NCBI RefSeq assembly: GCF_006345805.1
Contig: NC_043001.1
Location: 93,558,001-93,622,000, forward strand
Reading direction: 5' to 3'
DNA: 64,000 nt
From: Octopus sinensis
Taxonomy: Eukaryota
Both the position numbers and the translations under genes were made by a program. Shown here one piece after another: positions 14,864 through 62,812 of this stretch; within the stretch, counting starts at the first letter, position 1, and each line of letters starts with the position of its first letter. Below the pieces are notes generated by a model. The model had not been told where the DNA came from. It searched no databases and saw nothing but the letters and a program-made list of their open reading frames with translations.

Positions 14864-15055
14864 GTTAATCCAAACATGAAAACACAAAGAGAAAACACAA
14901 CAACGCGAAGACGTGGAACAAGTATAGTGTTATTGGACGCTCAGGAAGGAAGGAAAGAAGGAGGGTTTTACGTTTCGAGCGGAGCTCTTCGTCAGAAACA
15001 TAGGGAAAGGAAAGATCCAGAGAAGGGAAGACGGAGGAAAAAATTGCCCACGGTA
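14864..15055 (-). mobile_element. Penelope-like terminal-repeat fragment carrying a hammerhead ribozyme, between (TA)n and (CA)n
   Basis: 190 bp unique segment between microsatellites containing the ribozyme listed next; a related decayed copy lies at about 46950-47120. Confidence 0.7.
14965..14999 (-). ncRNA. Minimal type I hammerhead ribozyme
   Basis: Minus strand reads GUUU-CUGACGA-A-GAGC-UCC-GCUC-GAAA-C-GUA|AAAC. It has the complete catalytic core, a 4-bp stem II, stem I GUUU/AAAC, a loopless palindromic stem III (ACGU) and a GUA cleavage triplet. Confidence 0.85.
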
Positions 15056-15613
15056 CACACACACACACACATATATCACACACACATATATATATATATA
15101 TATACATACATACACACACACACACACCACACACACACACAACACACACACACACACACACACACACATATATATATATAATATATATATATATATAAGT
15201 ATGTTTTCCTTATCTCAGTATGTTGTTGAAATTTGTGAGACTAATGGAAACGTGAAACAAGACTAGATATATTTATATCTTAAACAAAACACACTTCCAA
15301 TAAAATGATGTACTATTTCTATACTGCCTTGCGGGATGTTGAATAGTTTTAAATATAGAGGTATAATAAATCAAATTATGTCTTTAGTGAATGTCAACAA
15401 TGTAAAGATGTTATTCCTCACTTACTACAATTCATCTCTAAAAATTAAATTGCACTGGTCATGCAAATCATTGTAGTCAAATAGCTTTTAGCAAAAACAA
15501 AAATAAGTAAGACAACGGAAAGTAAATATCTGACCGTTTGCTATCTACAGGCGCTTTGGCACTTTGTAGGCATCGGATTTTATGAATAATATACTATGCT
15601 TATATTTTGTTAT

Positions 15614-16140
15614 TTTTTGCTTGTTTCAGTCAATTCAATGCGGCTATGTAAGAGCACCGCCTCAATAGATTGTTATTCACAGAATTCGACTCAAATAGTT
15701 ATTCTTTGTAAGCCTAGTACTTAATATATCGGTACACTTTGCCGAACCGGAAAGTTTCGGGATCGTGAAAACAGTAACGTTCTTTAACAAGCCGCAGTGG
15801 GTGAGAAACACAGACACAAGGAGCCCCCCCCCCACAACACACACACACACACACACACACACACATATATATATATATATATATATATATGTATATATAT
15901 ATATGTGTGTGTGTGTGTATACATATATATATATATATTATATATATATATATAGAGAGAGAGAGACACACACACACACAACAGGCACCTATCAGTTTTA
16001 GTCTACCAAATCCGCTCTCAAGGGTTAGGTCAGTCCGAAGCTATAGCAGAAGACACTTGACCAAGTTGTCACGCAGTGGGACTGGACCTCGAATTATGTG
16101 GTTTGGGGGAGCAAGCTTCTTATTACACAACCATGTGCAT
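15614..16140 (-). mobile_element. SINE family A with expanded internal (CA)/(TA) tract
   Basis: Reverse complement of family A head (15985-16140) and tail (15614-15820). Confidence 0.85.
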
Positions 16141-16225
16141 ATATATAATATATATATATATATATATATATAATATATATATGTATTATATATATATGTG
16201 TGTGTGTGTGTATACATTATATATA

Positions 16226-16415
16226 GAGAGAGAGAGACACACACACACACAACAGGCACCTATCAGTTTTAGTCTACCAAATCCGCTCTCAAGGGTTAGG
16301 TCAGTCCGAAGCTATAGCAGAAGACACTTGACCAAGTTGTCACGCAGTGGGACTGGACCTCGAATTATGTGGTTTGGGGGAGCAAGCTTCTTATTACACA
16401 ACCATGTGCATATAT
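16226..16415 (-). repeat. Identical tandem duplicate of 15955-16145 (SINE A 5' half)
   Basis: acaggcacctatcagttttagtctacc...caaccatgtgcat repeated with a 271 bp period and no visible differences. Confidence 0.92.
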
Positions 16416-16620
16416 ATATATATATTATATATATATATATATATATATATATATATATGCGTGTGTGTGTGTCTGTATTTATATACACACACACACTCAA
16501 ATACATGTGTGTATACATATCCTTCCGTCCGTCTGTCCGTCAGTCCATCCATCCATCCATCCATCCATCCATCCATCTATCTATCCATCTATCTATCTAT
16601 GTTAATATGTGCATATTTAT

Positions 16621-16820
16621 GGCGGCGATCTCATAAAATCATTAGCACACGGGCAAACCGCTGAGCGGCATTTCGTCCATCTTTATGTTCTTAGTACAAA
16701 TTCCACAGAGGTCGACTTTACCTTTTATATTTTCATGAGAAATTAAGTACAATTTAAGCAATGCGGTCGACTTGCCTACTCCACCGAAATTGCTGGAATT
16801 GTGCCAAAATCTGAAACCAA
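16621..16820 (+). mobile_element. SINE family C copy
   Basis: ggcggcgatctcataaaatcattagcacacgggc..caaattccacagaggtcgactttacc..gaaattgctgg..gaaaccaat. Confidence 0.8.
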
Positions 16821-59944: not shown

Positions 59945-60125
59945 TGGAGAACTGGCAGAATCGACAGCACGTCGGGCAAGATGCTTAGCAGCATTTTATC
60001 CATTTTGTCGTTCTGACTTCAAATTCTGCCGAGGTCAACTTTCTGTTTTATTTTTTCGAGCTTTGGAAACTGTAATCGACTAGCACCGTCCCTCTAAATT
60101 TCAAGCCTTTCATTTATAGTTGAAC
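59945..60125 (+). mobile_element. SINE family C copy
   Basis: aactggcagaatcgacagcacgtcgggcaagatgcttagcagcatttt..ttcaaattctgccgaggtcaacttt. Confidence 0.82.
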
Positions 60126-61400
60126 ACTATTACTTTAAGAAATTGCAAAATAAATTCTAAGCGGATACAATGCACTTGCCTTGAGATAAACGTATATGAA
60201 TGGGTGAGAAACTTAGCAAGCAGAGAAACGAAATAATAAATATTTAGACTTGTGTCTAAATATTTTGGGCGTTTATTAAAAAATTCACGTGTGAGTTCAT
60301 TAAAAAAAAATCACACAAGCACACAGATACACTATTACGAACAGTTTTATATCTACATGCATAAATGCACACATACATGCACGTATATATGTACATATAT
60401 ACATTAATTTGCACATACAGATTCACGCACATATTTACTCTACCTTTTCCATATGTCTGTGTATATATATATTCATACGTAGATTCATATATATATATAT
60501 ATATATATATATATATATATTATACCACACCGAAATTTGTCTATGAATGTACACACACACACGCATATATATATATATATATAATATATATATATATATA
60601 TATTATATATATATATATATATATAATATATATATATATATACACATATACATGTGTATTCATATATGTATGTGTATGTATATATATGTGCGTGTGTGTG
60701 CTTGTGTGTCAATGTAGCTATCTATCTAGGGACATACATATGTACACATAAATACGTATAGTATGTATACGATTCACAGATTACTATTCGTACAAACGTT
60801 AAAATACCTTGAAGAGGATACCGGAGCTAATTTGACAAGCACTCAATCATCCTTTCATTTTTATAACAGCGACGCCATCATTTCGTAACTGTCACGCTAG
60901 TATTTTTCGAGGACGGAAACATAAGACGTGTCATGTAAAGAAGCCAAAAGTGATCTTAAAACAACGAACAATAAAAAAAATAAATTTAATTCTTTACAAG
61001 GTATATTTTTATTTCATCTTATATATATATATATATATATATTTTTTTCTTTTCTATTTCTTTGTCTACCCTTTTGTTTTCGTTTAAGAAAAAAAGTACC
61101 TTTTCCTTTCAGAATGCGGTTTATAATGTGACTTTTAACAAGATACTTTTTCACCCCATCAACACTATATCCTCCCGTCTTTCGTCACTTTCCATAATCA
61201 ACTAAATAACTTGATGGTTTCTTTCAAAGCCATTTCCCTCTCAATCGTTTTATTCTTCAATTTTCATTAACCATATTTTTATTTATATTATCTCAATATC
61301 TCATTTCTCCACCGTCTCTCTCTCTCTCTTTTCAAAACAACTCTTCATTCTCCTTAATGATATTTATTTCGTGCCTTCATTCTAATATCGCTTGCTCTTG

Positions 61401-61528
61401 TCTTCTTCTTCTTCTTCTTCTTCTTCTTCTTCTTCTTCTTCTTCTTCTTCTTCTTCTTCTTCTTCTTCTTCTTCTTCTTCTTCTTCTTCTTCTTCTTCTT
61501 CTTCTTCTTCTTCTTCTTCTTCTTCTTC
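61401..61528. repeat. Pure (CTT)n microsatellite
   Basis: Directly visible. Confidence 0.98.
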
Positions 61529-61689
61529 ACAATCTTGTGTTTCTGTAGATGTTGCTGTCCTTCTTGTTATTTATCCTACTCCTGATTGAACTTGTAAAAA
61601 AAAATTTCCCTCTCATTAGATTATGTCTTATTACAATATTTCTGGTTCTTTTTTCCTTTCCTTCTTCATCACGTCCCATTTACCTCCAA

Positions 61690-62070
61690 CTATTGCTGCT
61701 TCTGCTGCTGCTGCTACTACTACTGCTACTACAACAACTACTACTACTATTTATTATTTTTTCTACTACTGCTACAACCAGTACTATAACATTAGTAACA
61801 ACCACCACCACCAACACCAGTACCAGCTTCAGCACCAGCACCAGCACCCGTTGCCACTAGTACCGCTAATGCTACGGCTATTGCAGCTGTTGCTGCTGCT
61901 ACTACTACTACTACTACTACTACTACTACTACTACTACTACTACTACTACTACTGTGACGACTACGCAGTCAACAAGCACCTTGTCCAACCTACTACTAT
62001 CAACACGACCACCGCTACATGCAGGGGAAGCACTCCTCATCCTCCTACTACAACTACTACGACTACTACT
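61690..62070. repeat. (CTA)/(CTG)/(CAC) trinucleotide repeats
   Basis: Directly visible. Confidence 0.9.
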
Positions 62071-62634
62071 GTTGCTTTAATGCTTTACTTTCTTCTGTTT
62101 TTTTTTTTAGTTTCCTTTGATAGTTTTTCTTATGATGTTGGTAGCTTCATTGCTCAACAACATTGCGGCTTTGCAATATCTCATTGCATAAACATTTAGC
62201 ATAAATCACCTCTGAAATATTGTTAATTAGTTTCTAAGCTAAATAATTTATTTTTTTCTTGAAATTCTGTTATTCGTACATGACTTGATATTTCGTCATA
62301 CGGTTTTGTATCATTACCAGTTTATTTTTTTATTACTAGTAAAAAGTTTTCCATGTGAGAATGATATGCAATTAATTAAATGTAACAGTATACTTCATAA
62401 ATATTGGATCATTAGTCTAAATATAATAATCATTGATAACTATCTACGCTGGCACGGCGGACTTTTAAGTATGCCCTTTAGCAGGCACAGGCTATGAAAT
62501 GAATGGCTGGAAGTTACTTCTTCATTGGACGCTATTCTATTACACATAGAGAACATGCTGTTTTCATAAATCCATCCATCTATCTATCTATCCATCTATA
62601 TATCTATCTATCTCTGGGTATATATATATATACA

Positions 62635-62812
62635 TCTCTGCCTGCAACTGCCGAATTCATCTCCAGATATATTGACCGTGTCCTCGCCCCCCTAGTGGCT
62701 TCCCTCCCCTCTCACATCCATGACACAAACCACGCACTTCTTTTGTTCAACTATTTCTCCTTCCGTCCAGGCCCCTCTAAACTTCTCTTCAATCTCGACA
62801 TCCAGAGCCTTT
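62635..62812 (+). pseudogene. Penelope-like element reverse transcriptase fragment
   Basis: SLPATAEFISRYIDRVLAPLVASLPSHIHDTNHALLLFNYFSFRPGPSKLLFNLDIQSL matches the PLE RT pattern S..LD..L.PLV..LPSYIKDT..L....L.T.DV.SLYT; it starts right after (TA)n. Confidence 0.85.

What the first reader, a model, noticed from the sequence alone, without database searches (positions are those of the whole stretch)
14864..62812. Diverse hammerhead-bearing mini-elements that all sit in (TA)n tracts
Seen: several unrelated 100-400 bp inserts abut TA microsatellites. Many carry whole or partial hammerhead motifs with short, mostly palindromic stem III: GAAAC-GUA (14969), GAAAC-AUAU after a GACC/GGUC stem (18280-18310), GAAAC-GAUC-GUA (29618-29629), GAAAU-AGAU-GUC (31692), GAAAC-AGCU-GUA (35726), GAAAC-AUAU-GUC (37692) and GAAAC-CU-GUA (58598). 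A Penelope-like RT fragment also begins at a (TA)n (62635). Inference: a radiation of Penelope-like or retrozyme-like families targeting TA repeats, which may help seed or expand them. PLE hammerheads are known; these specific families may be uncatalogued.
Basis: partly seen in the sequence, partly recalled or inferred. Interest (0 to 1): 0.72.

Follow-up and report, generated by a model that had tools for sequence, protein, structure and literature searches.

The report
Hammerhead tails of Penelope-like retrotransposons
Most of these inserts are broken tail ends of several Penelope-like jumping-gene families that sit beside TA repeats and carry a hammerhead RNA motif predicted to cut itself, a known association; four of the seven sites belong to families whose hammerhead has one unusually long arm, and one site is an unrelated element with no hammerhead.

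Summary
Largely real and largely known. Six of the seven listed motifs are hammerheads, or their remains, in the 3' terminal repeats of Penelope-like elements (PLEs). Only two keep an intact core here (14969, 35726), but genomic copies of each family carry complete cores. Families link to Hydra-clade ORFs (29618, 31692, 37692) or to Neptune-like ORFs (58598 and the RT fragment); 14969 and 35726 have no ORF link. The 18280 motif is the 3' hairpin of a LINE, with no CUGANGA in 20 of 20 copies. 3' ends abut (TA)n in 54-90% of copies, against 6% by chance, but the LINE does so too (14 of 21), and the 31692 copy does not. No retrozyme arrays were found. Hammerheads in PLE repeats, (TA)n targeting and two alternative 3' ends are all published. 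Not found in print by my searches: helix II stretched to 55-70 nt in Hydra-type families (56,382 genome-wide pattern matches against 8,856 control), covarying across the 37692 superfamily. This scan noted that variant before on other DNA. Cleavage, and seeding of TA tracts, are untested.

The parts
14728..14805 (+). Decayed 3' stub of a further PLE family (J) whose copies carry a hammerhead with a 31-nt helix II region; ends at the (TA)n 14806-14863.
   Evidence: a Hydra-type endonuclease end lies about 300 nt upstream of this hammerhead in L336 (one locus)
14864..15054 (-). Family A: 3' terminal-repeat stub of a likely Neptune-like PLE; its 3' end abuts (TA)n
   Evidence: 2,797 first-look candidates; 27 of 30 ends at TA; short colinear blocks shared with the N1 repeat; no ORF link in 30 further loci or one 7.8-kb extension
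14965..14999 (-). Complete minimal type I hammerhead: 4-bp helix I, CUGACGA, extra A, 4-bp helix II, palindromic helix III
   Evidence: core intact in 17 of 19 top copies
18266..18479 (-). Family B: 3' end of a LINE (CR1-like, by recalled motifs) with a 3' hairpin (18287-18307) and a short tandem tail; not a hammerhead
   Evidence: no CUGANGA in 20 of 20 copies; upstream ORF2 with RVT_1, E 1e-17, in L045; 5,286 exact matches of a 21-mer
29581..29840 (-). Family C stub between two (TA)n tracts; long-armed hammerhead at 29612-29698 (58 nt between core halves), first core half mutated in this copy
   Evidence: complete in 9 of 14 top copies; Hydra-type endonuclease about 1.9 kb upstream in L328 (one locus)
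31650..32384 (-). Hydra-clade PLE stub (D'): endonuclease end at 32068-32384, 3' UTR, and long-armed hammerhead at 31686-31770 with a mutated core; 3' end not at (TA)n
   Evidence: tblastn E 1e-22 to the family D ORF
35554..36236 (-). Family E stub with an intact long-armed hammerhead at 35710-35819 (bulged helix I); an inverted 5' arm follows at 36366-36590
   Evidence: no ORF link found in 26 loci
37433..37745 (.). Family D two-armed insertion between (TA)n tracts: minus arm with the long 3' end, plus arm with the short 3' end; only the 3' half of the hammerhead is kept (37688-37709 +, 37626-37645 -)
   Evidence: the full family has a 778-aa ORF and tandem terminal repeats
47527..47956 (.). 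Family H inverted pair of PLE terminal repeats, each with a decayed minimal hammerhead (47797-47840 +, 47643-47686 -).
   Evidence: core intact in 10 of 14 top copies; C-terminal GIY-YIG-type endonuclease with CX4CxxC linker upstream in L133 and L134
58546..58747 (-). Family F stub; hammerhead at 58595-58628 of the U3-A8 core variant, mutated in this copy; 3' end at (TA)n
   Evidence: complete in 10 of 14 top copies; Neptune-like RT or endonuclease upstream, in the right orientation, in 5 of 12 loci
62635..62812 (+). Internal RT fragment of a Neptune-like PLE, truncated on both sides, starting beside (TA)7
   Evidence: 76% nucleotide identity to full-length family N1 (RVT_1 E 1.6e-7; weak GIY-YIG hit E 0.003), whose terminal repeat carries a hammerhead with a CUGUUGA core

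Best explanation
The inserts are 5'-truncated or inverted 3' ends (pseudo-LTRs) of several Penelope-like retrotransposon families, likely made when each element's own endonuclease nicked a (TA)n tract and its reverse transcriptase started copying just downstream of the hammerhead and stopped early. Shown: family membership, complete hammerhead cores in family copies, two fixed 3' end points in most families, TA at most 3' ends, and ORF links for C, D, F, H, J and the RT fragment. Inferred from published PLE work: the protein nicks AT-rich DNA and starts reverse transcription inside the RNA at one of two sites. Because the hammerhead lies only 40-200 nt inside those sites, nearly every stub carries it. 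The palindromic helix III would let two hammerheads of a tandem transcript cut as a dimer, likely helped by the protein. The lone genomic stubs are mostly dead. In Hydra-type families helix II has grown into a folded 55-70 nt arm. The 18280 insert is a LINE tail that also lands at TA.
For: Intact cores in top copies: A 17 of 19, C 9 of 14, E 6 of 14, F 10 of 14, H 10 of 14. Full-length elements with tandem terminal repeats: N1 and D. 3' ends with (TA)4 in a 37-nt window: D 51 of 62, A 27 of 30, F 21 of 26, E 12 of 17, N1 16 of 27, H 12 of 22, C 15 of 28, against 6.3% at random positions. Cores picked by pattern alone have (TA)5 within 200 nt downstream in 12 of 28 (short) and 13 of 24 (long), against 15.8%. 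Two clusters of 3' ends in D, C, E, F, H match the published 'tail' between two RT start sites (PMC11167929). Genome-wide core patterns: 60,937 vs 5,926 reversed control (short), 56,382 vs 8,856 (long) (overlapping matches count twice). D superfamily helix II: 6 of 10 predicted pairs change on both sides in 13 sequences.
Against: No ORF link for A or E, so either could be a non-autonomous derivative. C and J rest on one locus each. Clades were assigned by motif, not by a tree. RNAalifold did not recover the drawn helix II for the C group or for E. Within D alone, helix II changes are mostly one-sided. The youngest D copies carry a U4C core change and N1 an A6U change, so cleavage may be weak or lost. 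TA adjacency is not specific to hammerhead elements (LINE B 14 of 21).
Confidence: 0.85

Rival explanations
1. Some families (A, E) are non-autonomous, SINE-like or retrozyme-like derivatives that borrow a PLE enzyme, not stubs of coding elements.
For: Most A copies examined are about 200-250 nt, and no ORF was found upstream of A or E. Animal retrozymes are proposed to derive from PLE terminal repeats (bioRxiv 10.64898/2026.07.22.740005, first of five text parts read).
Against: No tandem hammerhead arrays in the window. A copies start at varied points, and two extend into a shared CA-rich region like the N1 3' UTR. E extends more than 1 kb upstream.
Confidence: 0.2
2. The elements create or lengthen the TA tracts, by RT stuttering on a short element-encoded UA run, instead of only landing in existing ones.
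For: TA is enriched downstream of pattern-picked cores but not clearly upstream (7 of 28 and 3 of 24 within 200 nt, against 15.8%). The main 3' junction of N1 and F falls on the longest alternating TA run (7 and 8 nt) of the region.
Against: Several window inserts have TA on both sides (29581-29840, 37433-37745). Upstream distance depends on truncation length, so it is a weak test. In C and H the longest run is not the main junction, and D junctions have only 3-4 nt. PAc starts at sites not homologous to the cut DNA (PMC11167929).
Confidence: 0.2
3. The motifs are chance matches, or the palindromes are MITE-like DNA transposons, in TA-rich DNA.
For: Half-motifs are only about twice chance, 37% of the window is within 200 nt of TA, and 37590-37745 and 47527-47956 look like inverted repeats.
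Against: Family copies restore complete cores, helix I covaries (C-G to U-A in 12 of 27), and the arms are pieces of coding PLEs. This rival holds only for the 18280 site, where the GAAAC is incidental.
Confidence: 0.03

Closest known systems
Minimal hammerheads of metazoan PLE terminal repeats (Cervera and de la Pena 2014, PMC4209133; text parts 1-2 of 4 and passages read)
   Same: Type I, extra nucleotide after A9, short palindromic helix III, U3-A8 variant (family F), mostly single truncated copies and close opposite-strand pairs, many families per genome.
   Different: Helix II there is 7-8 bp. Here C, D and E have 55-70 nt between the core halves. N1 has A6U and the youngest D copies U4C.
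Hydra-clade PLEs, including Hydra-1_Obim (Craig et al. 2021, PMC8557442; section 11, passages, Files S1 and S2, excerpts of S4, S5, S7 and figure text read)
   Same: DKT motif, no CCHH, CxxC and CxH at the endonuclease end, hammerhead in the 3' region, (TA)n insertion. Family C shares the U-U position at the base of helix II seen in many File S2 rows.
   Different: All Hydra rows of File S2 have a loop 2 of 3-10 nt; only two spike-moss PLE-X rows have about 30 nt. Family D has RWL for RWK and a degenerate linker, and its hammerhead differs from that of Hydra-1_Obim.
Neptune/Nematis-type PLEs (as defined in PMC8557442)
   Same: C-terminal GIY-YIG with CCHH and a CX2-5CxxC linker in N1, F and H; microsatellite bias attributed to that linker.
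   Different: Families not matched to named entries; Neptune versus Nematis not resolved by a tree.
PAc (Poseidon of Anolis; Frangieh et al. 2024, PMC11167929; text parts 1-2 of 4 read)
   Same: Two internal RT start sites giving an optional tail, AT-rich target, protein-assisted hammerhead that is dispensable for insertion in vitro.
   Different: PAc start sites are not homologous to the cut DNA, whereas the N1 and F junctions fall on 7-8 nt UA runs.
Non-LTR retrozymes (bioRxiv 10.64898/2026.07.22.740005, part 1 of 5 read; PMC7229834, search listing only)
   Same: Type I hammerhead, link to PLE terminal repeats.
   Different: Retrozymes are non-coding tandem arrays; these inserts are single or inverted stubs, most tied to coding elements.

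Membership tests
Endonuclease-bearing Penelope-like elements | Single ORF with RT and GIY-YIG endonuclease | tested here: met
   N1: RVT_1 and a weak GIY-YIG hit. D: 778-aa ORF with no Pfam hit, 22% to N1 at E 0.002, motifs as in Hydra. F, H, C and J are linked to such ORFs.
Endonuclease-bearing Penelope-like elements | ORF link for families A and E | tested here: inconclusive
   None in 30 A loci plus one extension, none in 26 E loci.
Endonuclease-bearing Penelope-like elements | Pseudo-LTR tandem, inverted 5'-truncated arm, optional tail | tested here: met
   Tandem repeats in N1 and D; inverted arms in D, E, H, F; two end clusters.
Hydra clade (family D) | DKG changed to DKT; CCHH absent; CxxC and CxH flanking the conserved E and N | tested here: met
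   L160-L162 ORFs against PMC8557442 section 11.
Hydra clade (family D) | RWK motif and CxCX5C linker | tested here: inconclusive
   RWL in place of RWK; linker CxN in one copy and degenerate in the young copies.
Hydra clade (family D) | Placement in the clade by RT phylogeny | not tested
   Reference proteins were seen only as supplement text; resemblance to Hydra-1_Obim was judged by eye.
Neptune/Nematis (N1, F, H) | C-terminal endonuclease with CCHH and a CX2-5CxxC linker | tested here: met
   read from the translations.
Type I minimal hammerhead | CUGANGA (or U3-A8), GAAA, UH and helices I-III in family copies | tested here: met
   for A, C, D, F, H; E has a bulged helix I.
Type I minimal hammerhead | The same core in family B (18280) | tested here: not met
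   0 of 20 copies have the first core half; one subfamily also lacks the G of GAAA.
Type I minimal hammerhead | Self-cleavage at H17 | not testable with these tools
   Needs an in vitro assay or raw RNA reads.
Non-LTR retrozymes | Tandem array with two or more consecutive complete hammerheads | tested here: not met
   No such array among the 119 TRF rows of the window.
Non-LTR retrozymes | No coding partner in cis | tested here: not met
   C, D, F, H and J are contiguous with PLE ORFs in at least one locus each; open for A and E.
Non-LTR retrozymes | Circular or multimeric RNA | not testable with these tools
   Only assembled contigs were available.

The most novel reading that the evidence does not exclude
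This genome holds tens of thousands of hammerheads in an undescribed long-armed form, whose folded helix II extension is a conserved docking site that positions the element's protein near the internal RT start sites. In the Neptune-like families, a 7-8 nt UA run encoded at the RT start pairs with the nicked TA target, like a telomerase template with its primer, so that RNA-DNA pairing and not only the endonuclease linker steers PLEs into (TA)n.
Probability: 0.2. Interest if true: 0.65.

Novelty: new variant of a known kind. Interest (0 to 1): 0.35.

Why it matters
It explains a common texture of this genome: TA tracts ringed by short hammerhead-bearing stubs. About half of the excess core-pattern matches lie beyond the 7-17 nt spacer that PMC8557442 used for its core search, so ribozyme counts from such descriptors are likely too low. 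Family D has near-identical full-length copies and three successive hammerhead versions, and N1 has many long open frames. These give ready constructs to test whether the long arm, the core changes or the UA run matter for cleavage and targeting, which are open questions for PLEs.

Tried and rejected
Rfam scan: no hammerhead among the 150 of 261 hits shown; these were nearly all microRNA models on simple or inverted repeats, all below their gathering scores. The first strict scan, without the extra nucleotide after A9, found nothing. The repeat finder was swamped by microsatellites. A DNA search with family B returned nothing; a pattern search then found it. My first pair count used a misplaced structure string and was redone. 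One row (L050) was on the wrong strand, and one seed was mis-sliced. 5' boundary calling for family A was unreliable in low-complexity flanks, so its 5' TA count is not used. The Hydra endonuclease near family E in L336 proved to belong to family J. Naiad origin for C or E: their 3' ends do not resemble, by eye, the octopus Naiad ends in File S5, and C links to a Hydra-type endonuclease. A probe for a shared read-through past the 3' end of A showed none among 47 matches. Expression: no RNA holder listed, and the four runs laid were contigs only; no evidence either way. Lunse et al. 2017 (PMC5785218) was not held; its variant catalogue may cover A6U, U4C or long helix II. Literature searches; none returned a description of long-helix-II PLE hammerheads in animals. 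Subscription journals and Repbase were not searched, and supplements of PMC4209133, PMC11167929 and the bioRxiv preprint were not seen.
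Full report
Setting. The window is G000:C5:93558001-93622000 of a 2.7-Gb animal genome, likely a cephalopod (my recall of its make-up; not tested). It has 2.45 (TA)5 tracts per kb, against 1.47 in 20 arbitrary 10-kb stretches.

Observation. Only 14965-14999 passes a strict type I scan (1 against 0.1 in 40 shuffles). A second intact core at 35710-35819 has a helix II too long for that scan. Palindromic half-motifs are 13 against 6.2+/-2.3. 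The motifs lie 36-229 nt from (TA)5, and 37% of the window is within 200 nt of such a tract, so the window alone is weak evidence. The family copies decide the matter.

Family by family. A (14864-15054): 2,797 candidates, a sharp 3' end at TA, core intact in 17 of 19 top copies, and short blocks shared with the N1 repeat; no ORF found. B (18266-18479): 5,286 exact 21-mer matches. Copies run upstream into a LINE ORF2 (RVT_1 E 1e-17) and end in a short tandem tail. The hairpin covaries (A-U to G-C in 5 of 11 rows, one row misoriented), but 0 of 20 copies have CUGANGA. The CR1-like label is recalled from motifs. C (29581-29840): complete in 9 of 14, with a 6-bp helix I and 58 nt between core halves; a Hydra-type endonuclease lies upstream in L328. 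D (37433-37745) and D' (31650-32384): copies restore a 5-6 bp helix I, the core and a 55-58 nt helix II region. The endonuclease search had 16,157 candidates. Three loci hold a near-identical 778-aa ORF with DKT, no CCHH, and terminal CxxC and CxH, as defined for Hydra. The window's D' copy still carries the endonuclease end (E 1e-22). E (about 35554-36590): core intact in 6 of 14, bulged helix I; no ORF found. F (58546-58747): the U3-A8 variant of PMC4209133, complete in 10 of 14, with Neptune-like coding sequence upstream in 5 of 12 loci. The RT fragment is 76% identical to N1, a full-length Neptune-like family with tandem repeats and an A6U hammerhead.

TA association. 3' ends have (TA)4 in a 37-nt window in 54-90% of PLE copies (D 51 of 62, A 27 of 30, F 21 of 26, E 12 of 17, N1 16 of 27, H 12 of 22, C 15 of 28), against 6.3%. 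These counts cover all distinct matches in the loci held, including read-through copies and the window's own. Cores chosen by pattern alone, the first 30 matches of each search reduced to distinct sites, have (TA)5 within 200 nt downstream in 12 of 28 and 13 of 24, against 15.8%; upstream the figures are 7 of 28 and 3 of 24. The LINE also ends at TA (14 of 21), so TA tracts collect several element types. Different families often sit side by side at one tract.

Genome scale. A short-spacer core pattern gives 60,937 matches against 5,926 for the reversed control, and a 45-70 nt spacer gives 56,382 against 8,856 (overlaps counted twice, stems not checked). Across 13 sequences of the D superfamily, 6 of 10 predicted helix II pairs change on both sides. 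In 27 D copies, 93.9% of cells pair; helix I shows one compensatory change in 12 rows, while helix II varies mostly on one side. Against this, RNAalifold did not recover the drawn helix II for the C group or E, so the arm's fold is supported for D only.

Mechanism. Shown: stubs of coding PLEs, two end clusters in D, C, E, F and H, inverted arms, hammerhead 40-200 nt from the ends. From PMC11167929: a PLE protein cuts AT-rich DNA and starts reverse transcription at two internal sites, which explains the tail; its hammerhead needs the protein and is dispensable for insertion in vitro. From PMC4209133: minimal hammerheads cut weakly and only as dimers. From PMC8557442: Hydra families insert in (TA)n and have hammerheads, including one octopus family. 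Inferred: the same cycle made these stubs, and most are dead. One lead of my own: the main junction of N1 and F falls on the longest UA run of the region (7 and 8 nt), and in N1 that run is read through in tandem copies. This does not hold for C or H, and D has only 3-4 nt, so it rests on two of five families examined.

What is new. The association is in print. The families appear uncatalogued in what I could read, but Repbase was not checked. The long helix II has no match among the Hydra rows of File S2 (loop 2 of 3-10 nt), with a partial precedent in two spike-moss elements, and my searches found no description. Earlier notes of this scan report the same variant on other DNA, and the docking-site idea comes from them. 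Verdict: a real, mostly known phenomenon with one undescribed structural variant; function untested.

Noticed in passing
window 19786-19925 (-); L012, L102, L030: Truncated copy of a repeat in which GAAAC precedes CUGACGA. In L012 the pairings read by eye fit a permuted, split-core hammerhead like those in earlier scan notes; the window copy has lost its 5' part at a TA tract.
   Followed up: partly
L160-L162, L170-L175, L180-L195: The youngest, near-identical family D copies have CCGAAGA (U4C), and some a G-U pair at the base of helix II, while older subfamilies have CUGAAGA or CUGAGGA.
   Followed up: partly
L082-L089: Family N1 has many long open frames and a CUGUUGA core (A6U); one repeat in L089 has A6C.
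   Followed up: partly
window 15981-16136, 16252-16407, 29315-29486, 32900-33219, 38922-39392, 47158-47336, 47956-48499: Many copies of abundant SINE-like repeats, often beside TA tracts; 15869-16485 is a 271-bp tandem duplication of one.
   Followed up: no
window 37814-38463, 46159-46568, 36022-36590: Further inverted-repeat elements; 46159-46568 has a GAAAC-palindrome-GTA motif nearby at 46578.
   Followed up: no
L245-L249 (G000:C1:948866-950829): Five long-armed hammerheads spaced about 470 nt apart, three on one strand and two on the other: a retrozyme-like array elsewhere in the genome.
   Followed up: no
L003, L051, L066, L117, L153, L331: Further unrelated long-armed hammerhead families met by chance in flanks; the one in L331 follows a decayed Hydra-type ORF.
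   Followed up: partly
window 18266-18479 (family B): The LINE 3' UTR has two conserved hairpins, the second followed by GAAAC in two subfamilies; it may be the RT recognition signal.
   Followed up: partly
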